Source of the DNA: Promethearchaeota archaeon
GTDB lineage: Archaea > Asgardarchaeota > Lokiarchaeia > Sigyniarchaeales > SOKP01
DNA: 64,000 nt
NCBI GenBank assembly: GCA_019058445.1
Contig: JAHPZA010000004.1
Span: 354,184-418,183, forward strand
Reading direction: 5' to 3'
Position 1 is the first letter of the stretch. Every line of letters starts with the position of its first letter. Below, one piece after another: positions 29,456 to 61,804 of this stretch. Made by a program: the position numbers and the translations under genes. Below the pieces are notes generated by a model. It made no database searches, was not told the DNA's origin, and was given only the letters and a program-made list of their open reading frames with translations.

Positions 29456-31059
29456 CTATTGATTGTGATTTAGGTTTACACCATACCCAATCAATCTATA
29501 TCTTCTATTGATAATTCTAGAAATAGCAAATATAAAATTTTCAGCAGGACAGATTGGGGGATTTAATTTAATAACAACACTATCTTTTAATAATTTGGTA
29601 ACCACTCCTCCAGTTTTTTCGGTACCCACAACTAACAATAATTTTTCATTATGTTTAAGCGCATGGACTTTAATCATATTTTCTGAACCTATTACCCTGT
29701 CTAATAGGTGGACTTTCAATTCAATTTCTGAAAGGATTTCCGGTAAATTTCCCGGTTTTCCAACTAAATGTCCAATTAAGGAGTCTCCCTTAGTAAGCGC
29801 AGGATCTAATTTTGTGCCAAGACCTATAAGACCCCCAGGTTTAGCTTCTTCTAAAAGATTATTACCTTGACTAATGCTTACAACAGTAGTTTTTATGGGA
29901 ATATATTCATCCTTTATATGCAATCCTGGTCGAATTTCAATTTGATCACCTACTTTAATTTCTCCCTTTAATACTGATCCACCAATTACCCCTCCTTTAA
30001 GTTCCTCAATATCTTTCCCGGGTCTATTGATATCAAATGAACGGGCGATCAAGAATTGGAATTCCTCTTCTTTACTCAGCTCTGGAGAAGGTATTATCAG
30101 TTCAAATGCTTCAACCACAGCATCGATATTTGATCCAAAAACAGCAGAGGTGGGAATAATAGGTGCATTTTCGGCTACAGTCCCCCTTACAAATTTTCTA
30201 ATTTGATTGTAATTCTCCAAAACTCGTTCTCTTGAAACAGCATCAATTTTATTTTGGATAATAATAATGTTTTTTATTCCAGCTATATTTAAAGCTGCTA
30301 AATGCTCTCTTGTTTGAGGTTGGGGACAAATTTCATCTGCGGCAATCAATAGACACGCCCCATCCATTAGCGAAGCGCCACTTAGCATAGTTGCCATCAA
30401 TATTTCATGCCCAGGAGCATCTACAAAAGAAATATTTCTCTTAAATTCCAATTGCCCTTTACAATCGGGACAGGAAAATCTGGGTTCACCCTTTTTTCTT
30501 TCTTTTTCGGCCATATATGCAGTTAAATAAGAATCACAAGAAGGGCAATAGAGAATAGTAGCATTTGAATAACCCAATTTTATTGAGATTCCCCGTTCTT
30601 GTTCTTCTGAGTGCCTATCAGTCCAGTCCCCTGTTAAAGATTGAACCAACGTGGTTTTTATGGGAAATGCCGAAACGACATTATCATACCATGGTCAACA
30701 TGACCGACTAGACCGATATTGCATTCAGCTTGCCTTTTTATAAGGTCCTTAAGATTAGTGGCCTCCTTAGAGGGTTTTCTTTTTACTGATTTTTCCTCTT
30801 TCGTGATTGCATCTGCTTTTTTTGGCTCTTTTTTTTGAGTTTTGTCTTTACCTTCTTTATGTTCTAATTCTTTATGTAATTTTTTAGCGCTATTAATGTA
30901 TTTTTCTGCGGTAGCCTTTCCGATACCTTTAATTTTTAACTTTACTAAATCTTCGGGCTTCAATGAAGCTAATTTTTGAACCGTATCTATTCCAGCCGCT
31001 TTCATTCTTTCAGCAGTTGCTTTTCCAATGCCACTAACATTTTCCAAGCGATCTTCCAT
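29456..31059 (-). CDS. eif2g: Translation initiation factor aIF2-gamma with N-terminal (HhH)2 extension; spliced CDS = complement join(30687..31059, 29456..30657), 524 aa
   Basis: Exon 1 ends QAECNIGLVGHVDHG; exon 2 continues KTTLVQSLTGDWTDRHSEEQERGISIKLGY, DAPGHE, QPQTREH, QNKID, RSFDINRPG, RLIGYG; 373+1202=1575 nt in frame. Confidence 0.9.
30658..30686 (-). other. 29-nt BHB/BHL-type mRNA intron in the aIF2-gamma P-loop
   Basis: Central helix AUGG/CCAU, bulges UA^U and AA^A, intron hairpin GA(U)AAUGUCG-UUU-CGGCAUUUC; removal gives GGU AAA ACC ACG (GKTT). Confidence 0.85.
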
Positions 31060-31191
31060 AATATTTTATTATACGTTATTATAAATAATTTTTATTGAAA
31101 ACCATATTGTCAAAATCTATCTATATTCAAAATGGAAAAGAATTCAAAGAAAAATATATAAAATTTACCTTCAAAATCATACTATAATATT

Positions 31192-31440
31192 CTAAATTTC
31201 AATGTCCCAATCATCGGATAATTGCTTAACTGTATTTCTACCCACATTATACTTTTCGCCTAATTTTATGAGAAAATTTTCCTTAACTAAAGTTTGCAAA
31301 TTTTCTCTGCTTCCTATCTTACGTTTTAACTTTTCTTTTGCTGAATACAAACTAACATTTATTTACTTTTCGTCTATAAGAGCTTCATGGGCCTTTTATC
31401 CTGTTTTCAATTTCATTATTGCCTTATCTCTACCATAAGT
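31192..31440 (-). pseudogene. Relic of an HTH-containing (possibly homing-endonuclease-like) gene
   Basis: One frame reads YGRDKAIMKLKTG*KAHEALIDEK*INVSLYSAKEKLKRK...KLGEKYNVGRNTVKQLSDDWDIEI*, with an HTH-like C-terminus. Confidence 0.4.
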
Positions 31441-31569
31441 TTTGATTACCGAACTCAAAAAAATTAATATAATTATTATGTAATAATCATTAATTATAAT
31501 TGGATGATTTAAATTATAGCTCTTATAATGTAAAAAAAGTAGTATTACAAAAATAATGGTGTTTATTAA

Positions 31570-32268
31570 ATGGCAAAGAAAAAGGATGCAAAAGAGAAAA
31601 ATAAGTATAACGAGCTCTATGATATTGGTCTAACGGATTCAGTACTTAAAAGATTAAAACAGTTCAAGAAAATTATTGATATAGGTAGAGAACTATTTGG
31701 TTCACGAGGCTCATACGGATTTAGTACACATGAATTAGCAAAACAATTACATATGTCACAAGGGAATATATACAATTATGTAGAGAGTAAGAGAGAATTA
31801 TGGTTAGCGATAAGGAAACAAGATTATAAAGAATATAAAAATGAAATCAAAAGTATGATAGACAACCATGAAGGTTCTTATATTTCACTTTTTAGAAAGT
31901 TGGCAGTCTTTTTTCTTGACTTTGCCAAAAACGAGCGCCATAAATTTCAAATGATGTATTTAATACCTGTCCCTCCTTCTAAAAAACTTGGAAAAATAGA
32001 AATAAATTATGAAGCACATTATCCACAATATCTCTTAAAGGAAGTCATAGAGAAAGCAATCGAAGCAAAAGAAATAATCGATGTTGATAGTACTAAACTC
32101 TCATGTTTATTGTTTGCTATGATGTATGGCATCGCAGCAGCAGAAACAGGACTTAGCTTAAAAAATCCTATTCAAGAACCTTTATTTGCTCCTGAAGATG
32201 CAATTAATCCCCAAGAATTTAGAGAATTTTCCTTAGATTTTATATTTGATATTATCAAAAGGAAATAA
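31570..32268 (+). CDS. TetR/AcrR family regulator
   Basis: FSTHELAKQLHMSQGNIYNYVESKRELW HTH. Confidence 0.88.
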   Translation: MAKKKDAKEKNKYNELYDIGLTDSVLKRLKQFKKIIDIGRELFGSRGSYGFSTHELAKQLHMSQGNIYNYVESKRELWLAIRKQDYKEYKNEIKSMIDNHEGSYISLFRKLAVFFLDFAKNERHKFQMMYLIPVPPSKKLGKIEINYEAHYPQYLLKEVIEKAIEAKEIIDVDSTKLSCLLFAMMYGIAAAETGLSLKNPIQEPLFAPEDAINPQEFREFSLDFIFDIIKRK

Positions 32269-32467
32269 CTGCTTTATTTATTTCTTTAAATTATTCTTAA
32301 GAATACTTAAATTTACCATATAAAAATAAAAACTACTACTCATTTTTAAACTACTTTAGGACAGTAATATTTAAATATGAAGTCACTGATTAGTAATTAT
32401 TTTATCATAATTATTAATTATTAGGAAATAATTAAAAATTGATATAAAAATCAGAAAAAATCTTGGT

Positions 32468-32710
32468 TTGAGTGCAAAAATGAATGAAGTAGAATCTGAA
32501 ACAAAGTATGAACCATTTAACAATAAACGAATGTTCGCATTTAGCCTTGGAGTACCAATAATAACATTGATGTGGAGCATACGGGCAATGATCCAACTAT
32601 ATGCAGAAAAAGGGTTAAAATTGTCTATATTTGCAGTATTAATAATTTTAGCTATTTATGCTATCTGGGATGCTAATTTTTTGAATTTAAAGTCGAAAAT
32701 CATCATATAG
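32468..32710 (+). pseudogene. Truncated N-terminus of a GPH/MFS_2 sugar:cation symporter
   Basis: Two TMs ending AIYAIWDA, where family members continue with xNDP; the sequence breaks and abuts a convergent gene. Confidence 0.55.
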
Positions 32711-32939
32711 TCTCGATGGTTTTAATATCGCGTCCAGTTATTGATTTTTTCTTACCAAGTTCTTTATATGAGACTCGCAATAAGCTATCTACGTAAAATG
32801 TAGATGTTTTGTTGCACGATTCATCCTTATGTAATATATAAACAGGAGCAGGATAGAGAGATTGATCAATATCTTCCTTCTCTATTTTAAATACGATTCT
32901 TTTATTACAATATGGGCAATAATTATAGCGCGTGGTCAT
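32703..32939 (-). CDS. Small Zn-finger-like protein
   Basis: CPYC...YPAPVYILH....C...FYVD..LRV. Confidence 0.65.
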   Translation of the reverse strand: MTTRYNYCPYCNKRIVFKIEKEDIDQSLYPAPVYILHKDESCNKTSTFYVDSLLRVSYKELGKKKSITGRDIKTIETI

Positions 32940-33047
32940 TAATATAAAAATCGTTTATTTTTACATATTAACAAATAAATTATTATTTTTATATTCTTAT
33001 TTCTATAAATAATAAAAGTCAATTTACTTTTTTATCATTGATACTAA

Positions 33048-35231
33048 ATGTTTAAAATTTCTTCTAAAAAGTCCCTCTATTTACTGTTTCTATTGTTTAT
33101 TATATTCCCATCCGTAATTCTTAATTATTCTCTTTTAGAGGGAACTATTCCAAATTCTTCGATTTATATAAATGTTGTAGCAGATAGTGAACCTGATGTA
33201 GATATGAGGGAATTGCCAGATTTTCCTTACGATGAATTAAATGAAATGTGGTATGATCCAAAAATTGAAATGCTTATTATCACACCAGATGGAAGACAAG
33301 ATTTTGTGAATGCTTGCAAACCATTAATGGAGTGGAAGAATGAGAAAGGAGTAAAAACAATTATTTTAAGCAATTTCTCTAGTTACCCGGGAAGAGATGA
33401 TCAAGAGAGAATTCGTAACATGATCAAATCTTATTATGAAGAAGAAAATATTCAATGGGTTCTTCTAGCAGGAGATGCCCAAAGTGATTTAATCCCTATA
33501 AGAGAAGTGCTAAATGATGATGTGGGATTTTGGGGTCAATCGGAAAAAGTGGGGGGTGATAATTATAAACCGACAGATTATTATTATGCTGATTTAACAG
33601 GTACCTGGGATAATAACGGTAATGGTGTATATGGTGAGTCTACATTTAAAACTGGAGGGCAAGATGAGATCGATTGGATCCCTGAAGTCTATGTCGGTCG
33701 TTTACCTGCTAGTAATGCAATTGAACTTAGTGAAATGATTAATAAAACTCTGAAATATGAAACAGATCCATATATTGAGAATTGGATGGGCAATATGCTA
33801 CTTGCTGGTGGTGTTTCAGATGTACCAGGAGAAGATGATGATGTTGATGGTGAGGATGAAGCCCGTTTAACAACATATATCTGGCAACATTATACTCAAT
33901 ATGAAATGAATTTCACTCATCTTTGTAATTATAATGCCGCCTATTATACACCTCCAGGCACTCATTCAGAATTAAATCAAAATAATTTCACTAATTCATT
34001 TAATTCTGGCTATTCCACTGTATTATTTGCAGGTCACGGTGATATTGGAGCATATTCAGATAAGATCGGTGTAAATACTTTTCGCACAATTTATACCTCT
34101 ACCGATGCTAGTGCAAGCAGCAATATAGACATGCCATCATTGATATATGCTGATGCTTGTAGTACCTCCACTTTCGATTATAATGATAATAGCATTGGAG
34201 AGATTTTAATAAAGAGGTCTAATTCAGGAGCTATTGGATATGTTGGTTCCCTGCGAGTCACATGGTATATACCAAATGATTTGGATCTAGAAATTTTGAA
34301 TAGAGCAAACGCAAAATTATTTTGGGAGGAATTTTTTCAAAATAAAAAATTTCAGCAAGGTAAAGCATTATATGACTCAAAAGTTACATATATGAATAGC
34401 GATTATTTTAAAGACGAGCGTGTTAATGCTGAGGACTATGATGAAGCTGAAAGAAAAAATCTATTAACTTATTGTTTATTAGGCGATCCCGAAGTTGATA
34501 TTTATACAGATAAACCTGCGAATGCCTCAAATCCATTCACTCAAGACATTTACGAGGGTCAATTAATAACTACAATAATAAGAAACATTAATGGTAAAGC
34601 GGTTCCTTATGCGAGAGTAAATTTAAAAACAACTGATAAAAAATATCGTACTGTTTATAGTGATATCAATGGTAGAATAAGCTTTCGCCTTCCGGCTCAA
34701 GCGTATGAAAATTATAATGTAACAATAACGGGACACAATTTGATCCCCACTTATTTCAATTTCACGACTTTACCGGATAATAGCAAACCTAACTTTATTG
34801 ATGAAAAATGTACTCCTAAAGATCCTACAGTATCCGATAATATATGTTTCGAAATTGAAGTCGATGACTCTGAATCCGGAATTGAAAATGTGTATTTGTT
34901 ACAATCTAAAGATAAAGACTTCGAAACGTTTAGCTATTATAAGATGGTACATCGTTTCGAAGATAATAAAGATGAGTTTAAATATACGATAAATAAATTA
35001 GATCCGGGGAAATATTACTTTCTAGTCGTTGCGAGAGATTGGGCTAATAATAAAGAAATATTAGAGGATAAGAGTTTTAAAATCTTAATACAAAATCCTA
35101 TTATGGATTATGTACTCGTTACCTCATTAATTATGGTAATAGCTTTATTATGTATATCAATTTTTACAAGTTATAATGGAAGAAAACAATATCAACGCAA
35201 AATCAATAAGTTAAAATTAACTAATAATTAA
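33048..35231 (+). CDS. Membrane-anchored peptidase C25 (gingipain) family protein
   Basis: VLLAGD, TDYYYADL, VGRLP, catalytic FAGHG and ADACS, LLGDP; N-terminal signal and C-terminal TM. Confidence 0.88.
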   Translation: MFKISSKKSLYLLFLLFIIFPSVILNYSLLEGTIPNSSIYINVVADSEPDVDMRELPDFPYDELNEMWYDPKIEMLIITPDGRQDFVNACKPLMEWKNEKGVKTIILSNFSSYPGRDDQERIRNMIKSYYEEENIQWVLLAGDAQSDLIPIREVLNDDVGFWGQSEKVGGDNYKPTDYYYADLTGTWDNNGNGVYGESTFKTGGQDEIDWIPEVYVGRLPASNAIELSEMINKTLKYETDPYIENWMGNMLLAGGVSDVPGEDDDVDGEDEARLTTYIWQHYTQYEMNFTHLCNYNAAYYTPPGTHSELNQNNFTNSFNSGYSTVLFAGHGDIGAYSDKIGVNTFRTIYTSTDASASSNIDMPSLIYADACSTSTFDYNDNSIGEILIKRSNSGAIGYVGSLRVTWYIPNDLDLEILNRANAKLFWEEFFQNKKFQQGKALYDSKVTYMNSDYFKDERVNAEDYDEAERKNLLTYCLLGDPEVDIYTDKPANASNPFTQDIYEGQLITTIIRNINGKAVPYARVNLKTTDKKYRTVYSDINGRISFRLPAQAYENYNVTITGHNLIPTYFNFTTLPDNSKPNFIDEKCTPKDPTVSDNICFEIEVDDSESGIENVYLLQSKDKDFETFSYYKMVHRFEDNKDEFKYTINKLDPGKYYFLVVARDWANNKEILEDKSFKILIQNPIMDYVLVTSLIMVIALLCISIFTSYNGRKQYQRKINKLKLTNN

Positions 35232-35232
35232 T

Positions 35233-35799
35233 TTAACTCGTTTTAGAGGGATTTTTTATTGCTTCTTCTTTTTTTAAATGAATAAGATATTGAATAGATC
35301 TATATGTAGAGAGCCCACCTTGACATATTAAAGCCAAACATATAAAAAGTATTGCGATTAAATCATTGAATATAAACAAAAATAACAGAATTAGAATCCC
35401 AGAGAGAGTAAATGTGAAGATAGATGAGATTTCACCAAAAATTATTTTCCAAGATTTTGATTTCTTTATATGCACCTTCAATTCTTCTTGATATTTCTCC
35501 TCACCAACTTGTTTAACATACCAACTACCTTCTATATTATTGGCGAACAAAAAGAGACTCCAAAAAAAAATAAAAAACGCAAAATAAAAGTCTAAACACC
35601 CAAGAATAATGAGCGGAACTTGGATAATAACAATACCCTTCCAACCAAGTTTTCTGGCAATTTTATTAGTTTCCAGTTTTAATTCTTTAGTAACATATCT
35701 CGTTGAGAGGATGTCAAGAGATCTGCCAAGTATTACAATAAAAGCATTTATGAGATATTGGTACCATTCAGTGGAATGAAATATAAGTTGGAGTATCAT
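35233..35799 (-). CDS. Polytopic membrane protein
   Basis: Several hydrophobic segments; D..ST...L.LE.N motif. Confidence 0.7.
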   Translation of the reverse strand: MILQLIFHSTEWYQYLINAFIVILGRSLDILSTRYVTKELKLETNKIARKLGWKGIVIIQVPLIILGCLDFYFAFFIFFWSLFLFANNIEGSWYVKQVGEEKYQEELKVHIKKSKSWKIIFGEISSIFTFTLSGILILLFLFIFNDLIAILFICLALICQGGLSTYRSIQYLIHLKKEEAIKNPSKTS

Positions 35800-35983
35800 C
35801 TTAACTGATATTCTAATAATGATTTATAAGTTTAATGTTTTTCGTTTTAATCTTTAATTCTTTTAAAAAGAAAGATTCAATATCAAAAATTTAGAAATTA
35901 TCCTCCAAAGTTAATGGAATTAGAGTATTTTTGAATACTTTTGGACTGTATAGATTTAAATAACAAGGTAAATATAGAGAGCT

Positions 35984-37324
35984 GTGAAAGAGAAAAAAGA
36001 TTTGCAATGTAAATATGAGAATTGTACAAATAGGAAGATAGATTACAACGAAAAAAATACTAATTCTAATCTATTGTTTTTGGATATCTTCGAAGATAAG
36101 AAGACTTTAGAAGACTATGTTATTGAACAAATTCAGTATTATTCTAGAACAGGTGAAAGATTATATCAACAAGAAGACATTACGAAAGCACTTAAATTTA
36201 GAATGGCTGATTTCAAGCCTAAAGTAATGAATATAATTAGAAGTATATTTTACACAAAAAAAGAGGATATTATTCAGACTATCTACGATATGACTTTTGG
36301 GAAAGTTAGATTTGCAATTCAGAAATTACGACATTGGGCTTCGCAAAATGGAATGGAAGTATTAACGACATCTCAAGAATGGTTTGATATGGTACTTAAT
36401 AGAGATGAATATCTCAAAACTGGACCTAAAAAGACAACAGAATTTTTAAAAGTTTTAATAAAGTGTGCTCAAGGCCATATTTATGTTAAATATGCAAGGG
36501 AAATTTCAAAGGGATGTAAACATTGTCAACCGTATAGGGTCGGTATTGCATATACTCGTACTTTAGAAGAATACTATGAATATATAAAGGATGTCTGCTC
36601 AGTAAGAGGTTATGAATTAATAACTACGAAAAAAGAGATTATATTAAAATTAAAGAAATCCAGACAGATTAAAGATCGTACTAGTTTTGAAGGTCGTGAT
36701 GAAAATGTTGGGATAGAAGTGAGACATAAAGGATGTAATCATGAATTTAAAATTCGTTTTAAAGCTGTTTTGTATAATCCTGGATGTAAATTCTGTATTT
36801 CACACAAAAAACAAAAAATTGTACAATTAATAATAGAAGAGATGTTAGGAGAAAAATTTGAACCTGAGGTACAAATTCATAGAGTATTTAATAAAGTGAA
36901 GCATAAAGAAGTAAATGATTTCGATTTTAGAGTCAAATTGGATATGTTTAAAAAGGTAGGAATTAGAGATAAAAATGGAAATTTTATTAAATTGGCTATT
37001 GAAAGACATGGCCAACAACATGAGCCCACACTAAAAGGATTCAAAATCTATTTAAAAATAGCTAAACATCCTGATATAAAAAGAGGAAGTAAAATATATA
37101 AAACATTATGGAAGAAGTGGATGAAACAGTTAAACACTGATAAAAAAGAAATAGAGATATTTCAAAAATATAATGAAAATGGTTATTATTTAATTGTAGT
37201 GCATCATAAGATTAAAAATCATCAAGTAGAGCAATTTATTATTAACGAATTGATGAGACAAACAGGCAATAAAATTAGCTATATAGGTATTCAATGGCAA
37301 ACCTTATTTAATAAGATAAAGTAA
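35984..37324 (+). CDS. Zn-ribbon plus PD-(D/E)xK/Vsr-like (EDxHD-type) endonuclease, free-standing homing-endonuclease-like
   Basis: C..GH...GCKHC and H..C.H...GCKFC modules; KLDMF..., LAIERHGQQH, D.KE.E....NGYYLIVV. Confidence 0.65.
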   Translation: MKEKKDLQCKYENCTNRKIDYNEKNTNSNLLFLDIFEDKKTLEDYVIEQIQYYSRTGERLYQQEDITKALKFRMADFKPKVMNIIRSIFYTKKEDIIQTIYDMTFGKVRFAIQKLRHWASQNGMEVLTTSQEWFDMVLNRDEYLKTGPKKTTEFLKVLIKCAQGHIYVKYAREISKGCKHCQPYRVGIAYTRTLEEYYEYIKDVCSVRGYELITTKKEIILKLKKSRQIKDRTSFEGRDENVGIEVRHKGCNHEFKIRFKAVLYNPGCKFCISHKKQKIVQLIIEEMLGEKFEPEVQIHRVFNKVKHKEVNDFDFRVKLDMFKKVGIRDKNGNFIKLAIERHGQQHEPTLKGFKIYLKIAKHPDIKRGSKIYKTLWKKWMKQLNTDKKEIEIFQKYNENGYYLIVVHHKIKNHQVEQFIINELMRQTGNKISYIGIQWQTLFNKIK

Positions 37325-37338
37325 AAAATTTTTAAAAA
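37323..37338 (-). terminator. Oligo-T terminator for the 5S precursor
   Basis: T5 and T6 runs on the minus strand directly after the processing stem. Confidence 0.45.
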
Positions 37339-37357
37339 TAGTCATATAACTTAACGT

Positions 37358-37538
37358 TTCCGGGTTCCCGAACCATCCATAAATCAGATGATTTTTCGGA
37401 TGGGACCGGGTACTATCCTCGATAGCCATGACCGTAAGCAAACTTATGCTTGCGTTGCAATACACAACGCAATTTACAGTTTGATAGTTCCCACAGATTG
37501 CAACTGCAGTACTATTATCAACGCGTATCGAGTTTAAC
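37358..37538 (-). rRNA. rrf: 5S rRNA gene, circularly permuted and intron-containing; mature order = 37437-37395, 37364-37358, 37538-37474
   Basis: Helix I UUACGGU/ACUGUAA; helix II GCUAUCGAG/CUCGAUA(C)GC; helix III ACCCGG/CCGG(AA)GU; loop C UCCCAUCCGAAC; helix V UUGAUA/UAUCAA; loop E AGUA/GAA; helix IV CUGCAG/CUGUGG; total 115 nt. Confidence 0.88.
37365..37394 (-). other. 30-nt BHL intron in 5S rRNA loop C
   Basis: Central helix UCCG/CGGG, bulges AA^A and AA^C, intron stem AAUCAUCUG/UGGAUGGUU. Confidence 0.85.
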
Positions 37539-37599
37539 CTTCGGCGTTATGCGAAATGCTTTGTTATATGATTATATTATAAAAAAGAAAAATTATGAA

Positions 37600-56552: not shown

Positions 56553-57275
56553 TTATTTTTCCCAAACTCCAATGAAATCATCGGTTAGTTTTAAAATTTT
56601 ATTAAAACCTAGGTTTTTATACAATTCCCTTAGACTCTTTTCATCATGTTGCCAGCTTGAGCGCTTGTGATATGAATTGATTCCATCATTATCGGCTAAA
56701 AAAAAATCTAAAAATTTAATTACTTTTTCAGGAAAAAATTTAGTTATAAACATTGTTGTTTTTCCAATGAAAGCATATGCATGCACATCCTGAGGCTTTA
56801 CCGCAATAGGCTCACATAAAATGATTTTATTCGCATGTTTTTTAGCATTCTCCACTAAATCAATGTGTCTATTTGTTTGAGCATCATAAATATGATGAAG
56901 AATATCACAGAAGACAATGACATCCTGAGGTTCTTTAGGATATTTATCATAATCGAAGATATTATTCTGTTTTAAAATTAATTTCTTTAGGTTAATTTTA
57001 CCGCTTTTCCAGTCTTTATGCATTTTTTTTAAAAATCTATGATTAAGGTCAAACCCAGTATAAGTAGTTGAGGAACTCAAAAATCTGGTGAGAAATCCAG
57101 TGCCACATGGCAGATCAAAAACTTTTTTTGATCCATTTCCTATTAATTTTGCAATTGTCGAATATTTCTCATATCTATCATACAGACAATCAGTAACAAA
57201 GTTATAAATAATCCCACTCCGATAGGGGAGACTTCTAAAACCCGCAAATCGTTGAAATCCCGTTTTAGTAGCCAT
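56553..57275 (-). CDS. Class I SAM-dependent methyltransferase
   Basis: VFDLPCGTG, GFDLN and DILHH motifs. Confidence 0.82.
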   Translation of the reverse strand: MATKTGFQRFAGFRSLPYRSGIIYNFVTDCLYDRYEKYSTIAKLIGNGSKKVFDLPCGTGFLTRFLSSSTTYTGFDLNHRFLKKMHKDWKSGKINLKKLILKQNNIFDYDKYPKEPQDVIVFCDILHHIYDAQTNRHIDLVENAKKHANKIILCEPIAVKPQDVHAYAFIGKTTMFITKFFPEKVIKFLDFFLADNDGINSYHKRSSWQHDEKSLRELYKNLGFNKILKLTDDFIGVWEK

Positions 57276-57518
57276 ATTGAACTCAATATCACAGTAATTA
57301 ATAAAAATTGGTTATTAAAAAAGTAGTTAAATTTTATTAAAAAGTTTATCTTTTTAATAAGCTAAAATTAGATAAAAATCACTTCATACTGAGCATATTC
57401 TCATAAATCTTAGGAAGTTGATAACCTTCTCAGATAATAATTTACTCATAAAATATGAAAAAAAATGAAAAAAGTTAAAATTGTTATGTTGGGAATGGTC
57501 ACTAATCCCTTATTCATA

Positions 57519-59570
57519 CTAAACTTTCAATTTCTCAATTTTTTCTTCTATCTCTTTATCGAGAGTTATCAATTCTTTTTCCAGATCTTTAATTTCTTGC
57601 GAGATGGTTTCAAATCGCTCTTCTTGGATACTTAGCTTTTTAATGTACTTCTCTTTTAAAGTATTTTCTTGAGAGGTATTGCCTAACACAGAAATATTTT
57701 CTCTCAGTCTTGCCTGTTCTTCAGTCATCTGATATTTTTCATCTTCTAACTTGGATTTCTTGGTATTAAGATCATTCTTTCTGCCTATTAGTTCACCAAT
57801 TTCCTTAAGTTGTGCTTCTAATTCTTGATTTATAAATTTTTGCCGGACATAAAAAGCGACTCGTTTGAGGAGATCTTCTTTTGTATAATTATAAAGATAA
57901 TAGCTCGAATAATCTTCCTTGCGTTCCTTGATTTCAAATTTAACAGCATCCTTAGGCTTAAGAGTTAATTTAAACCGCCAGAAATTAGGAGTCTCTTCTG
58001 GTTCAGTAGGACTTTCTAAAATTTTATACCCATACTGTTTGGGGTGATCTAAATAAAGTTCTTTATCTTCATTAGTTTTATTCTTGATTTTATAAAGTGT
58101 TCTTGAATTGGTATAATAGTATTCATAGCAATATGCTCCTCCAAATGAGATTCTATGAATGTCTTGATTCTGAGAAAAAGTTTCGTGAGTAATTACTACA
58201 GCTTGTTCTACAGCATAATTTAAAAGTCGGGTATCATCTTTATTTAAAAAAGGAATTATTGCTTCCCCGGCAAGGTTATTATCATAAATTATAGTTGCGG
58301 GGCCTCTCTCTAAAGTCAAACCAGAATCATTTGTAACCTCAATACAGGCATTTGGATTTTTATCGTATTCATTCTTATTATAAAGTAGAATTTTTTTTGC
58401 TTTTATTTCTTCAGTTAATATAGGAACAAGTGCACTATGCTTTCTTTTAATAGACACTGGATTTGAGATATTATATTCAAAAAGTTCACCAAGATCTTTT
58501 GTCTGGGTAGATGTTTGAGCCTTGACTTTATCCATTAAGGTTTCATCATCCATATCCGCAGCAAAACCCACGGTAGAGGCGGTCATTCTCCCTCCTGGAG
58601 CTGGTGGAGGCATTCCCCCTCGTGCTACTTGTTTAGCTTTTTCCAAGGCTCGCATAGGCATCGCTTCAGCTTCTTCCATTTTGTACTCTTTGAATTTATC
58701 CATTTCTAAGCCTTCCTCGATTTCAGTCGGTTTAGCACTTAATACGCGAGGAGGTTGAATTATATGTCTTTGAATATAAATAGGTCTATAAAAATCATAA
58801 ATAAACGATACAGGCATTCCAGCGACTAGAGATAATTCAATATCCTCCCAATCTACATTTGTAGTGTTTTCCACCAAGCTCCAACCAGAGAGCAAACATT
58901 TTTGGTCTAGAGCTTGTTGCTTACTCATAATTAACCTATAGGAAGTCTTCCATACTGGCGATTCTCTTATGAAACTGACAATAATTGTTCGTTCACCCTC
59001 TTGTCCTCCTGCTTCGCAATTAATTGTTATCTTTTTTGAATCCTTTTTTTTTCCAGCAATTACCGTGTCTAAGAAAAATTTTAAATCCTTTTGCAAGTCT
59101 TCACTTAAAATCTTAAAGGATGTTATTTCAGAAAAGGGAATCTTAGTAATAACACCATCATCCTTTAATAAAGCCAGTAATTTCTCAAGGACTTTTTCCT
59201 CTTTAACAAATTTTTCAACAAATTCAATTCCCATTATGGTGCCAGAGACTTTTTCACTACTTCCTATCGTTAAGTCTATTGCTGCACCTTTAATTTGAGT
59301 AATAAGAGATGACAGAGAATTTGTATCAGGAACGTTTAACATAATAGATTTTAACAATTGTGATGTCTCTAAAGCAGCATCATATGAAATAGATGAAATA
59401 TACCCTTTTTCGCTTGTATCTAAAACGAAAAGAGACTTCAAAACGTCATTCATTTCATCAATTTTAAACTCAAGTTCAAATGTACCAGTGCCTTTTATTT
59501 TTCCCTCATTTGTAAAGAATGATATTCCAGTTCTATGTATTATGACTTTTTTTACTTTTAATTTATTCAT
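57519..59570 (-). CDS. DUF4139/DUF4140-like protein with C-terminal coiled coil
   Basis: MNDVLKSL.VLD, PVWKTSYRL, VENTT..DW..I.LSLVAG.P.SF, GELFEY, SALVPI. Confidence 0.75.
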   Translation of the reverse strand: MNKLKVKKVIIHRTGISFFTNEGKIKGTGTFELEFKIDEMNDVLKSLFVLDTSEKGYISSISYDAALETSQLLKSIMLNVPDTNSLSSLITQIKGAAIDLTIGSSEKVSGTIMGIEFVEKFVKEEKVLEKLLALLKDDGVITKIPFSEITSFKILSEDLQKDLKFFLDTVIAGKKKDSKKITINCEAGGQEGERTIIVSFIRESPVWKTSYRLIMSKQQALDQKCLLSGWSLVENTTNVDWEDIELSLVAGMPVSFIYDFYRPIYIQRHIIQPPRVLSAKPTEIEEGLEMDKFKEYKMEEAEAMPMRALEKAKQVARGGMPPPAPGGRMTASTVGFAADMDDETLMDKVKAQTSTQTKDLGELFEYNISNPVSIKRKHSALVPILTEEIKAKKILLYNKNEYDKNPNACIEVTNDSGLTLERGPATIIYDNNLAGEAIIPFLNKDDTRLLNYAVEQAVVITHETFSQNQDIHRISFGGAYCYEYYYTNSRTLYKIKNKTNEDKELYLDHPKQYGYKILESPTEPEETPNFWRFKLTLKPKDAVKFEIKERKEDYSSYYLYNYTKEDLLKRVAFYVRQKFINQELEAQLKEIGELIGRKNDLNTKKSKLEDEKYQMTEEQARLRENISVLGNTSQENTLKEKYIKKLSIQEERFETISQEIKDLEKELITLDKEIEEKIEKLKV

Positions 59571-59737
59571 AGAATTATCACGATCTATTAATAATATAAA
59601 TTTATTCTTTGATTCAAAACTTTAATCAACCAAACAATTAAGAAAAATTATGAAAATCTCAATTAAATGCTCCAAAAATAATGAAAAATTAAATTACATA
59701 TAAAATAGATAAGTGGATACTCATTTTTCATGGTTAT

Positions 59738-61477
59738 CTAGATATAGTATCTACTAAAAATACTGTCAATTCCTTTTGGAGTGAAATTCTTATAAAGACA
59801 ATCATTTAACAATTTTTTATCTATACTTGGATAAATTTTATATAGTCGAATTAAAAATTGAAATAAATTAATAAATTGTCTAGGAGAATTATCTGCATAA
59901 TTTAAATCCTTTAAATCATCATATTCTTCATTCCAAATCTTTTTAATCACAGAATTAATTGTCACTCTCGTCTCCTTTAAATTCCGTGATAGCTCAATAG
60001 AAGTTCTGACACCGATTTTAATAAATTCTATTATCTTTGGCTTATAATAGTATTCCAATTTTGCTTCATTAAAAGTCATCTCTAAAGATTTAGCAATTCT
60101 TTGACTTATCGCAGAGTAATCCTTAAATTCAAACAATACTGAAATTGTTGTAGGAGAATGTCCATCTGATATTAATTTTATAAAGAAAAGACGTTCAATT
60201 TCTTCAAAAAAAAGTATTTTATTTATTAAATCATCAAAGTATGTTTTATTAATTCTTTGAAAAATACGAAATAATAATTGAGCTTCATAAAAAGTTAAAT
60301 CCCAGTATTCTCTTATACGTGCTCTTATAGTGACATTTGTCGTATTATAAAGTTCAGCAATTTTATATTCATCCAATCCCTCCTCTATAAGGTTCTTTAA
60401 CTCATTCTTAGGAATAAATACAAATTGGTAAGATTCTATGCCTCTTAATGCATATTCTAAATGTCTTTTATATAACCTTTCTTGATAAACATCCATAACT
60501 CCAAACAAGAACCGAACTTCCGTCAGATCTTTTATGCCTAGCGACTTCAGTCTTCGATATAATATTCCATGATTAATATTCAGTTTTTCACAGATCTCAT
60601 CATGAAATAATCCTTGTTCTATAAGTTCTATAAGCTTTTCAAGATCAACATCAATATAACCCCTAATTTTGAATGGAATCCACCCTCCAAAGGCTTTTCT
60701 TGCAGAATTAATAGTTGTAATTCCAAGATCCCCCCATAATTCTTTTATCTTAGAATTCACAGTAGAATAACCTATTTAAAACTCATTTGCTATATCTTGT
60801 GTGAAATAACCCGACTGTATCATCTTTTTAAGTTCATCTTCGGGAATATTTACATATCGAGGATTCAAAAAACCGTATAAAACAGGATATCCTGTGCCTC
60901 CACGATTTAGATTATATCCATATAAAGGTTTTATTTCTTGATTATCAAAAGTAAATTATTTGTAAACATAGGTTTTGTAAAATTCAATATATTATTTCTC
61001 TTTATTACAGTGGTCAATAAGATCTGTTGTATAATCAATAACTTGAATAGTAAACTCTCCTCCATCTGTTTGTGAGAATTTCTCATCTACAGTTATTACT
61101 TCAAAATCTTTGTTATACCTTTCAAATGCGTTTTGTAAATATTTATTATCAGAGGTTCTAATATGTTCCAAGAATCTTATCCTTAAACTACGAATAGTAC
61201 ATCCAATATAATACATTTCATGATCTAATGATTTATCTTTATTCTGATCGATAAGAATATAAATTACACCATAAAATTCACCCCAAAAATTATTGTCATT
61301 ACCATCATTTGTATTTCTGTTGGTGATTGTACGAGAATAGGTATTTAGAGGGTTGTTTATCTTCCTTACTGGTATTGTTGGATCTTTAATGGTATTTTTA
61401 AAAGAACAATAACGCTTTCTCATTTTATTATTTTTTTTTCCAATTTTTTCTGTTTTATAATTCGATTTATTATACAT
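59738..61477 (-). pseudogene. GIY-YIG endonuclease with multiple C-terminal HTH-like repeats; single frame broken by three TAA codons
   Basis: GVIY...YYIGCT, RFLEH, EK*YIEFYKT, GYNLNRGG; TAA at 60992-60994, 60956-60958 and 60776-60778; in frame with 59738-60760. Confidence 0.75.
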
Positions 61478-61804
61478 TTTTAAATAAAAAAATAAAAGGA
61501 GTGTGCAATAGATCTAGAAAATTTTCAATTTGAATCATTCTCTTTATAATAAAGTGGAAATGAGGAGTAATAAGTAATATATTAAAATTTTTGAAGACAA
61601 TGTCATGAACTGCTGAAAAGGTAAATTTAGAGACTGATTTCAATGAAAATTTGGTGAAAAAACTAAACTGAAACTAATGGCAATGAAGGTACAATAAAAT
61701 ATTAAAGATATCTATCATAATGAACTTATGTAAATATATTAGTCAAACTCATCAAGAGCTTGCCAGGCTAAGAACAAACATTAATAATAAAAAGGTGAAA
61801 CAGA

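What the first reader, a model, noticed from the sequence alone, without database searches (positions are those of the whole stretch)
29456..37575. Three splice motifs in ~7 kb suggest a lineage-wide non-tRNA splicing system
Seen: the aIF2-gamma intron, the 5S intron and the 5S permutation junction share one design. Each has a strict 3-nt bulge beside a firm stem, a ~4-bp central helix, and a relaxed loop on the exon side. Both introns are 29-30 nt, end in AA, and sit in the most conserved motif of their host. Inference: a broad-specificity splicing endonuclease has allowed introns to spread into rRNA and mRNA in this Asgard lineage, so other apparently frameshifted core genes may be spliced. 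This bears on RNA processing in the ancestors of eukaryotes.
Basis: inference. Interest (0 to 1): 0.85.

Follow-up and report, generated by a model that had tools for sequence, protein, structure and literature searches.

The report
tRNA-type splicing of mRNA and 5S rRNA
In this Lokiarchaeial (Asgard) genome the essential aIF2-gamma gene and the only 5S rRNA gene are broken by ~30-base inserts, and the 5S gene is also circularly permuted. All three breaks fold into the motif cut by the archaeal tRNA-splicing enzyme and are conserved in relatives, so tRNA-type cut-and-join very probably also matures mRNAs and 5S rRNA here.

Summary
All three motifs are real, at the stated coordinates, and far beyond chance.

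- **aIF2-gamma.** A 29-nt insert (30686-30658, minus strand) splits GHVDHG|KTT. Sixteen of 85 distinct relatives carry a 29-32-nt insert at the same site, with compensatory changes. A 93%-identical congener has none.
- **5S gene.** The only 5S gene (37571-37342, minus strand) is circularly permuted: 3' half, linker, 5' half. It also carries a 30-nt loop-C insert.
- **Distribution.** A model of the permuted gene finds one full-length copy in 117 of 131 same-family genomes and none in 14 sister-family genomes, which keep ordinary 5S.
- **Processing motif.** Leader and trailer form a 3-4-3 bulge-helix-bulge. In 25 loci, rule-based cutting and joining gives a ~120-nt circle collinear with normal 5S. 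Of 36 tested pairs, 95.9% of cells pair and 23 pairs show changes on both sides.
- **Other genes.** EF-2, cooS, Sir2, a ChlI-like ATPase and acyl-CoA ligases are split the same way.
- **Enzymes.** RtcB is present. Congeners have a crenarchaeal-type alpha/beta EndA with the specificity loop. This assembly holds only the non-catalytic paralogue.
- **RNA data.** None exist, so splicing itself is inferred.

The scan had already noted similar introns elsewhere in this genome. I found no paper describing any of this.

The parts
30687..31059 (-). aIF2-gamma exon 1: (HhH)2 N-terminal domain, Lys/Glu-rich linker, and the start of the G domain up to GHVDHG
   Evidence: Pfam HHH_5. Relatives without the insert have one 515-540 aa frame.
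30658..30686 (-). 29-nt bulge-helix-bulge (BHB) insert in the P-loop codons. It shifts the frame and supplies a stop codon.
   Evidence: The same site is occupied in 16 of 85 distinct relatives. An independent contig bridges it.
30689..30692 (-). Central-helix strand AUGG (His-Gly codons), which pairs with CCAU at 30660-30663
   Evidence: A relative, L063, has ACGG/CCGU, a change on both sides.
29456..30657 (-). aIF2-gamma exon 2, from KTTLVQSL to the stop codon
   Evidence: Pfam GTP_EFTU positions 44-187, GTP_EFTU_D2 and eIF2_C
37539..37571 (-). 5S leader: outer-helix strand UCAUAUAAC (37571-37563), UAACG (37549-37545), central-helix strand CCGA (37544-37541), and bulge AG^G
37474..37538 (-). 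5S 3' half: GUUAAAC, helix II 3' strand, helices V and IV, helix I 3' strand
37438..37473 (-). 36-nt linker hairpin joining the native 3' and 5' ends. Most relatives have only a UUCG-type tetraloop here.
37395..37437 (-). 5S 5' half: helix I 5' strand, helix II 5' strand, helix III 5' strand, and loop C up to CCGAA
37365..37394 (-). 30-nt insert in loop C: central helix UCCG/CGGG, bulges AA^A and AA^C, 9-bp hairpin
   Evidence: It is present in 10 and absent from 15 of the 25 distinct family loci reconstructed.
37358..37364 (-). 7-nt exon CCCGGAA. Its CCGG forms helix III in the mature fold and the central helix of the junction motif in the precursor.
   Evidence: three-way covariation of columns 12, 148 and 166
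37342..37357 (-). 5S trailer: third bulge base A, CGUUA (37356-37352), and outer-helix strand GUUAUAUGA (37350-37342)

Best explanation
The three motifs are substrates of the archaeal tRNA-splicing pathway.

Proposed mechanism: an alpha2-beta2 EndA recognises a 4-bp helix flanked by 3-nt bulges. It cuts between the 2nd and 3rd bulge base on each strand, and RtcB joins the ends.
- In the aIF2-gamma pre-mRNA this removes 29 nt and restores the P-loop frame.
- In the 5S precursor it removes a 30-nt loop-C intron.
- At a second motif, formed by leader and trailer, it cuts off both flanks. Joining ...CCCGGAA to GUUAAAC... closes the RNA into a circle (151 nt here, about 120 nt in most relatives). 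This restores the normal 5S order across helix III and loop B.

The same pathway removes ~30-nt inserts from other mRNAs of this genome, such as EF-2 and cooS.

Shown here: the sequence geometry, the exactness of the rule-derived products, conservation, covariation, presence/absence polymorphism, and the presence of RtcB and of EndA genes in the lineage.

Inferred: that cutting and joining happen, which enzyme does it, the order of the two 5S events, and whether mature 5S stays circular.
For: 1. **Rule-based removal gives exact products.**
- It restores GHVDHGKT(T/S): the rule-derived candidate was recovered by an automatic structural search in 9 of 16 interrupted relatives. I read the other 7 by hand; all restore the frame, some through a 4-6-nt 5' bulge or a weak hairpin.
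- It restores the 5S consensus CCGAA|CCCGGAA|GUUAAAC.

2. **The processed 5S is a complete 5S.** Circles from 25 loci each give one collinear hit over positions ~3-115 of a profile built from sister-family 5S (own: 42.3 bits, E 2.8e-13). The genomic order gives only two half-hits in swapped order.

3. **Covariation.**
- 95.9% of cells pair, against 35-43% when partners are slid. Of 36 pairs, 23 change on both sides, and 0 of 500 shuffles reach this.
- All 3 leader-trailer pairs next to the motif change on both sides.
- The central helix switches between CCGG/CCGG, CCAG/CUGG and UCAG/CUGG, in step with helix III.
- The aIF2-gamma helix switches from AUGG/CCAU to ACGG/CCGU, and the hairpin has C-G to U-A changes.

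4. **Distribution.**
- The own genome has no canonical 5S and one permuted copy.
- The permuted model hits 117 of 131 family genomes. It hits 0 of 14 sister-family genomes, where 9 of 11 have ordinary 5S.

5. **Presence/absence polymorphism in single-copy essential genes**.

6. **Paralogue comparison that used no motif.** Four inserts of 29-30 nt have a 4-bp helix and 3-nt bulges of exactly the expected length. A fifth candidate (estimated ~42 nt) stayed unresolved.

7. **Split Pfam domains.** cooS Prismane is split 3-457 | 458-512, Sir2 at 103 | 108, and EF-2 GTP_EFTU at 33 | 48.

8. **Enzymes.**
- RtcB is intact.
- Congeners have a catalytic alpha subunit with Tyr, His and Lys and the loop GSPLGINKP, closest to the Aeropyrum alpha subunit.
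- The cutting rule is taken from PMC2738675.

9. **The tRNA genes are themselves heavily interrupted.** Of the 23 tRNAs ARAGORN finds, 18 are called with introns.
Against: - No RNA data exist for this organism, so no spliced or circular molecule has been seen.
- The catalytic EndA alpha subunit is not found in this assembly (92.6% complete). Only a paralogue with Phe and Ser in place of the catalytic Tyr and His is present.
- The exon-side helix is missing in all three motifs.
- The own junction helix has a C.A mismatch.
- The 7-nt exon would have to be held in place and joined on both sides.
- Some relatives' aIF2-gamma inserts have weak hairpins or a 4-6-nt 5' bulge.
- A motif-only genome scan showed no excess over shifted-cut controls, so the number of mRNA introns is not known.
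Confidence: 0.85

Rival explanations
1. The 5S leader-trailer motif is only a trimming site. EndA cuts, but the ends are not joined, or the circle is later reopened elsewhere. Mature 5S would then be linear: either a permuted molecule with its ends in loop B and helix I capped by the tetraloop, or a normal-order molecule opened at the linker.
For: Helix I is closed by a stable 4-nt loop in most relatives, so the fold does not need free helix-I ends. Permuted linear 5S rRNAs exist in organelles (PMC4267664). Archaeal circular pre-rRNAs are normally reopened (PMC8339473).
Against: The two pairs that span the junction are kept (G.U in 14 of 15, U-A or U.G in 13 of 15). This fits either form. In every studied case of this motif RtcB joins the exon ends, as for permuted tRNAs and the Thermoproteus SRP RNA (PMC3978253, PMC4731332). 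I saw no second processing motif at the tetraloop.
Confidence: 0.3
2. The inserts are not removed from the RNA. The mRNA inserts would be skipped by the ribosome (programmed bypassing, as in T4 gene 60), or the interrupted genes are pseudogenes.
For: Each insert carries a stop codon and a hairpin, as bypass elements do.
Against: The same design interrupts the untranslated 5S rRNA. No matching take-off and landing codons exist: GGU precedes the gap, while AUA/UAA precede the resumption. aIF2-gamma, EF-2 and 5S are single-copy and essential. The inserts are kept with compensatory changes in many genomes.
Confidence: 0.03
3. The inserts are removed by RNA processing, but not by EndA. Another structure-specific nuclease would recognise the hairpin, with RtcB or another ligase joining the ends.
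For: No catalytic EndA gene is in this assembly. The exon-side helix is absent.
Against: All 40 relatives searched carry an EndA homologue, and 37 carry the high-scoring (about 89-108 bits) alpha-type copy; I checked the catalytic residues in 18 of them. The 3-4-3 geometry and the cut position are exactly those of EndA substrates. The assembly is incomplete.
Confidence: 0.05
4. The inserts and the permutation are assembly or binning artefacts.
For: The genome is a metagenome-assembled genome of 10 contigs.
Against: The same architecture is found in more than 100 independent assemblies. Contigs from two other studies bridge the sites without gaps.
Confidence: 0.01

Closest known systems
cbf5 pre-mRNA intron of Crenarchaeota (Watanabe 2002; Yokobori 2009, PMC2738675)
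   Same: A short intron in a protein-coding gene, with a relaxed bulge-helix-bulge motif. The predicted cut lies between the 2nd and 3rd bulge bases. It is processed by a hetero-oligomeric EndA, and the intron is present or absent among relatives.
   Different: The host genes differ (aIF2-gamma, EF-2, cooS, Sir2, acyl-CoA ligases and others), and many genes are affected in one genome rather than one. The lineage is Lokiarchaeia. cbf5 itself is uninterrupted here. Splicing has not been shown experimentally.
Permuted SRP RNA gene of Thermoproteus (PMC4731332) and permuted tRNA genes (PMC3978253, PMC3218864)
   Same: The 3' half is encoded upstream of the 5' half. Leader and trailer form a bulge-helix-bulge motif. 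Cutting and joining would restore the functional order through a circle.
   Different: The RNA is 5S rRNA. The trait is fixed across a whole family. The breakpoint sits in helix III/loop B and has two alternative positions. An intron can lie 7 nt from the breakpoint.
Permuted organellar 5S rRNAs (PMC4267664)
   Same: 5S rRNA with swapped halves.
   Different: Those are organellar, with no bulge-helix-bulge motif or EndA pathway. Here the cut-and-join product is collinear with ordinary 5S.
Circular pre-16S/23S rRNAs, and circular or permuted 23S in Thermococcales (PMC7758197, PMC12918454)
   Same: A bulge-helix-bulge motif in an rRNA processing stem, EndA cutting, and RtcB circularisation.
   Different: In those cases the gene order is normal and the joint lies outside the mature sequence. 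Here the joint lies inside the mature 5S.
[quoted passage not shown]
   Same: The same lineage, enzyme type and motif.
   Different: Those studies cover tRNA genes only. mRNA and 5S substrates are not described there.
HAC1/XBP1 unconventional mRNA splicing in eukaryotes (own knowledge)
   Same: A short intron is removed from an mRNA without the spliceosome, by an endonuclease together with a tRNA ligase (RtcB in animals).
   Different: The nuclease is Ire1 and the RNA motif differs. This is an analogy, not shown homology.

Membership tests
Archaeal bulge-helix-bulge (EndA-type) intron | A 4-bp central helix flanked by two 3-nt bulges on opposite strands | tested here: met
   aIF2-gamma has AUGG/CCAU with UAU and AAA. 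The 5S intron has UCCG/CGGG with AAA and AAC, with the helix paired in 10 of 10 loci. The 5S junction helix is perfect in 22 of 25 loci; the own copy has one C.A mismatch.
Archaeal bulge-helix-bulge (EndA-type) intron | Cutting between the 2nd and 3rd bulge bases yields the functional product | tested here: met
   In silico only. The cuts restore GHVDHGKTT and the 5S consensus with full-length profile hits. The rule is taken from PMC2738675.
Archaeal bulge-helix-bulge (EndA-type) intron | Flanking helices on both the intron side (h') and the exon side (h) in the strict form | tested here: not met
   The intron-side helix is firm, with 3-9 bp. The exon-side helix is absent or displaced in all three motifs. 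They are therefore relaxed (HBh'/BHL-like) motifs, not strict hBHBh'.
Archaeal bulge-helix-bulge (EndA-type) intron | A splicing endonuclease able to cut relaxed motifs is encoded | tested here: inconclusive
   The own assembly has only a non-catalytic paralogue, with Phe and Ser in place of Tyr and His. All 40 relatives searched carry an EndA homologue, and 37 carry the high-scoring alpha-type copy. That copy has Tyr, His, Lys and the Crenarchaea-specific loop in the 18 I read.
Archaeal bulge-helix-bulge (EndA-type) intron | An RtcB-type ligase is encoded | tested here: met
   PF01139, 574 bits, in a 492-aa open frame.
Archaeal bulge-helix-bulge (EndA-type) intron | Spliced RNA is observed | not testable with these tools
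   No RNA run is listed for this organism.
Circularly permuted RNA gene matured through a bulge-helix-bulge motif | The 3' half lies upstream of the 5' half at one locus, and leader and trailer form the motif | tested here: met
Circularly permuted RNA gene matured through a bulge-helix-bulge motif | The joined product is collinear with the canonical RNA | tested here: met
   All 25 circles, plus 4 with the alternative breakpoint, give one full-length hit to the sister-family 5S profile.
Circularly permuted RNA gene matured through a bulge-helix-bulge motif | A circular RNA is detected | not testable with these tools
   No RNA data.
5S rRNA (Rfam RF00001) | The genomic sequence reaches the family's gathering score | tested here: not met
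   There is no hit in the window or the genome. Permutation plus the intron explain this.
5S rRNA (Rfam RF00001) | Helices I-V and loop C are conserved, with covariation | tested here: met
   helices I, II, III, IV and V pair in 88-100% of cells, with changes on both sides.
aIF2-gamma | GTP_EFTU domain, domain 2 and eIF2_C, with an intact P-loop after removal of the insert | tested here: met
Programmed translational bypass (T4 gene 60 type) | Matching take-off and landing codons flank the gap | tested here: not met
   GGU precedes the gap and no GGN precedes the resumption point. The same design also occurs in the untranslated 5S rRNA.

The most novel reading that the evidence does not exclude
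Ribosomes of a whole Lokiarchaeial family would carry a covalently closed circular 5S rRNA of about 120 nt. It would be made only by tRNA-type cut-and-join of a permuted gene. The same enzyme pair would carry out routine, possibly regulated, non-spliceosomal splicing of dozens of mRNAs, including translation factors. That would be an Asgard counterpart of HAC1/XBP1-type splicing.
Probability: 0.3. Interest if true: 0.92.

Novelty: new variant of a known kind. Interest (0 to 1): 0.85.

Why it matters
Until now, archaeal tRNA-type splicing of a coding region was reported for one gene only (cbf5). It was not known at all for 5S rRNA. This matters in four ways.

- **Annotation.** An entire Asgard family appears to have made 5S maturation dependent on EndA and RtcB through a permuted gene. 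This explains why 5S looks missing from these genomes. Core genes such as aIF2-gamma and EF-2 are called as split or frameshifted, which also affects completeness estimates.
- **Enzymology.** The sites are natural test substrates for the range of the Asgard EndA.
- **Ribosome biology.** It raises the testable possibility of a circular 5S rRNA in a ribosome.
- **Evolution.** It shows protein genes tolerating many small non-spliceosomal introns in the closest prokaryotic relatives of eukaryotes. This bears on ideas about early intron tolerance but proves no ancestry.

Tried and rejected
- **Rfam.** Gathering and E-value scans of the window and genome found no 5S, and ARAGORN found no tRNA in the window.
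- **Unconstrained folding.** The minimum-free-energy fold of the aIF2-gamma junction was not distinctive (z = -0.83). The motif shows only under the geometric rule and in comparisons.
- **Motif-only genome scans.** I looked for motifs that fuse two open frames. With loose or strict hairpin criteria they gave no excess over controls with the cut shifted by 1-2 nt (58,259 against 57,158-61,582; 248 against 192-264). AT-rich hairpins at operon borders swamp the signal, so I give no genome-wide count. The first two script attempts timed out or were too permissive.
- **Paralogue comparison.** It also returned operon borders next to fused paralogues (HdrA-like genes) and many in-frame stops with no insertion. 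I rejected these as introns.
- **Mixed 5S alignment.** MAFFT misplaced the last exon when rows with and without the intron were aligned together (A2). I used separate alignments instead.
- **Catalytic EndA.** tblastn with 18 relatives' alpha subunits found only the beta-like locus in the own genome.
- **RNA holders.** No RNA holder is listed, so no split-read test was possible.
- **Literature.** Searches found no report of permuted 5S or mRNA introns of this type in Asgard archaea. One paper reading failed on a term that was too short.

Full report
**Setting.** The window is G000:C4:354184-418183 of a 4.6-Mb assembly in 10 contigs, about 31% G+C and 92.6% complete. The closest records are MAGs labelled Promethearchaeota/Promethearchaeia, such as Loki_b31 and Loki_b32. 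The organism is therefore a Lokiarchaeial Asgard archaeon.

**aIF2-gamma.** On the minus strand the gene reads ...NIGLVGHVDHG, then 29 extra bases, then KTTLVQSLTGDWTDRHSEE in another frame.
- The His-Gly codons AUGG (30692-30689) pair with CCAU (30663-30660) at the 3' end of the insert.
- Each strand of this helix is followed by a 3-nt bulge: UA^U and AA^A.
- The interior forms a 9-bp hairpin with one bulged U.
- PMC2738675 places the EndA cut between the 2nd and 3rd bulge residues. Applying this removes 30686-30658 and gives GGU AAA ACC, that is G-K-T.
- Exon 2 carries GTP_EFTU (positions 44-187), domain 2 and eIF2_C. Exon 1 carries an HhH domain.
- An unconstrained fold is not distinctive, so the case rests on comparison with relatives.

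**aIF2-gamma in relatives.**
- In 55 of 61 family genomes the gene was found. Most have one 515-540-aa frame. About 15 have frames of about 396-439 aa that stop at the P-loop.
- Among 85 distinct sequences, 16 carry a 29-32-nt insert at exactly this codon boundary and 69 do not. A 93%-identical congener is among those without it.
- All 16 restore GHVDHGKT(T/S) on removal.
- An automatic structural search recovered the rule-derived candidate in 9 of the 16. In 6 of those it ranked first among structural candidates within about ±35 nt of the site, and in 2 it ranked second.
- I read the other 7 by hand. They have weaker hairpins or a 4-6-nt 5' bulge.
- L063 has ACGG/CCGU instead of AUGG/CCAU: a synonymous His-codon change matched by a change in the intron. 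The own hairpin and that of L048 differ by C-G to U-A.
- The inserts fall into several unrelated sequence classes at one site.
- A contig from another study bridges the insert without a gap.

**5S rRNA: sequence.**
- Rfam finds no 5S in the window or the genome.
- On the minus strand at 37571-37342 there are recognisable 5S halves in swapped order: GUUAAAC...ACUGUAA (3' half), a 36-nt linker hairpin, then UUACGGUCAUGG...CCCAUCCGAA (5' half).
- These are followed by 30 extra bases, CCCGGAA, and a trailer.

**5S rRNA: distribution.**
- RF00001 is found in only 1 of 24 same-family genomes, and weakly. It is found in 9 of 11 genomes of a sister family.
- BLAST with the own locus finds the same swapped order in relatives. 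In most, a UUCG-type tetraloop replaces the long linker.

**5S junction motif.** I applied one rule to 25 distinct loci.
- The leader ends ...GCG-CCGG-AA^G and the 5' half ends CCGG-AA^G-CGC....
- Twenty-two loci have a perfect 4-bp helix with 3-nt bulges on both strands, and 23 have at least 3 contiguous pairs next to it.
- The joint is always CC(C/U)(G/A)GAA|GUUAAAC.
- The circle is 119-121 nt. It is 151 nt in this genome and in three near-identical relatives.
- The own copy has CCGG/CCGA, with one C.A mismatch.

**Test of the processed product.** Doubled circles scored against a profile of sister-family 5S each give one collinear hit over positions ~3-115 (own: 42.3 bits, E 2.8e-13). The unprocessed loci give two half-hits in swapped order.

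**5S covariation.**
- On a 15-sequence alignment, my precursor structure pairs in 95.9% of cells, against 35-43% when partners are slid.
- Of 36 pairs, 23 change on both sides, and 0 of 500 shuffles reach this. The tool warns that related sequences can exceed every shuffle without any structure, so the slid-partner control carries more weight.
- All three leader-trailer pairs change on both sides.
- Column 166 of the 7-nt exon co-varies both with leader column 12 and with helix III column 148 (CG 11, UA 4 in each). The same CCGG therefore serves the motif in the precursor and helix III in the mature fold.

**5S loop-C insert and lineage spread.**
- The loop-C insert is present in 10 loci. Its UCCG/CGGG helix is paired in all 10 but invariant, so it gives no covariation. 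The hairpin shows some covariation.
- A covariance model of the permuted gene finds one full-length copy in 117 of 131 family genomes (12 of 13 genera) and in 0 of 14 sister-family genomes. It gives weaker full-length hits in two further families of the order.
- Four loci use another breakpoint 17 nt upstream (CCCGGUC|CCAUCC). They again have a perfect motif and 120-121-nt (150 nt in L033) circles that match full-length 5S.
- Contigs from a third study cover the own arrangement without gaps.

**Other genes.**
- A comparison of adjacent open frames with intact paralogues, made without using the motif, gave four inserts of 29-30 nt: EF-2, a Sir2-like gene and two acyl-CoA ligases. All four have a 4-bp helix with 3-nt bulges of exactly the needed length. 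A fifth candidate (estimated ~42 nt) stayed unresolved.
- Pfam shows single domains split at contiguous positions:
  - cooS: Prismane 3-457 | 458-512.
  - Sir2: 58-103 | 108-180.
  - EF-2: GTP_EFTU 2-33 | 48-187.
  - A ChlI-like ATPase is split at MNPE|EGELRPQ.
- Of 32 AMP-binding matches, three genes are interrupted.
- cbf5, the classic host of such an intron, is intact.
- A motif-only scan could not separate true cases from operon borders. I therefore give no total.

**Enzymes.**
- RtcB is intact.
- The only EndA homologue in this assembly has FRVF and DSAKF where the M. jannaschii enzyme has FRLY and EHSVY. It lacks the catalytic Tyr and His and looks like the structural subunit.
- All 40 relatives searched have an EndA homologue, and 37 have the second, higher-scoring copy.
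- In the 18 I read, that copy has Tyr, His and Lys and the segment GFYGSPLGINKPR. This aligns with the Crenarchaea-specific loop of the Aeropyrum alpha subunit.
- This agrees with PMC5829648, which reports an alpha/beta EndA with the L1 loop in Asgard archaea.
- The alpha gene is probably in an assembly gap. This is not shown.
- ARAGORN finds only 23 tRNAs, 18 of them called with introns. This fits the heavy interruption of tRNA genes reported in bioRxiv 10.64898/2026.10.13.758758.

**What is not shown.**
- No RNA run holds this DNA. Splicing, circularisation, the order of the two 5S events and the final form of 5S are inferences.
- The 7-nt exon is a mechanistic difficulty unless the two events are sequential.
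- The exon-side helix is absent, so the motifs are of the relaxed kind.

**Comparison and novelty.**
- The mechanism is the known EndA/RtcB pathway.
- The closest precedents are the cbf5 intron (PMC2738675), the permuted SRP RNA and tRNA genes (PMC4731332, PMC3978253), and circular or permuted 23S rRNA (PMC7758197, PMC12918454).
- The new elements are a family-wide permuted 5S gene, a 5S intron, and many mRNA hosts including translation factors in Lokiarchaeia.
- I found no paper describing these.
- Earlier notes of this scan had flagged similar introns elsewhere in this genome. I treated them as leads and tested several.

Noticed in passing
window 30687-31059 (-): aIF2-gamma carries an N-terminal (HhH)2 domain and a Lys/Glu-rich linker. 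Intact 515-540-aa frames in relatives show the fusion is conserved in the family. Unspliced mRNA would encode a 133-aa HhH-only protein.
   Followed up: partly
L033, L035, L041 and L038 (relatives' 5S loci): These loci use a second 5S permutation breakpoint 17 nt upstream (CCCGGUC|CCAUCC). The leader CUGG pairs with the other strand of helix III. The motif is perfect and the circles give full-length 5S hits.
   Followed up: yes
L033 (5S 3' half): An extra ~29-nt insert lies in the helix IV/V region of one relative's 5S, giving a 150-nt circle. It is probably another intron position.
   Followed up: no
G000:C9:770309-770918: The only EndA homologue in this assembly lacks the catalytic Tyr and His. 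The catalytic alpha gene, which nearly all relatives have, is missing from the assembly.
   Followed up: yes
window 29456-37575 and relatives (for example G003:C237, G005:C5, G009:C2): aIF2-gamma and the permuted 5S gene lie about 4-7 kb apart in several relatives, so the neighbourhood is conserved.
   Followed up: partly
G000, many loci: Many adjacent same-frame open frames are separated by a single TGA, TAG or TAA with no insertion relative to paralogues. ARAGORN also calls tRNA-Sec and tRNA-Pyl-like genes. These may reflect recoding, pseudogenes or antisense artefacts.
   Followed up: no
aIF2-gamma inserts in L043-L175: Inserts at the identical site fall into at least 4-5 unrelated sequence classes. 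This suggests either repeated gain at one site or fast turnover constrained only by structure.
   Followed up: partly
window 35984-37324 (+): A 446-aa open frame ends convergently a few bases from the 5S trailer stem. I did not examine it.
   Followed up: no
G000:C1:131435-131776: cbf5 (TruB_N), the only archaeal gene previously known to carry such an intron in its coding region, is uninterrupted here.
   Followed up: yes
G026, G027 and G029 (other families of the order): The permuted-5S model gives weaker but full-length hits (54-68 bits) in two further families that also lack ordinary 5S hits. The permutation may be older than the family.
   Followed up: partly
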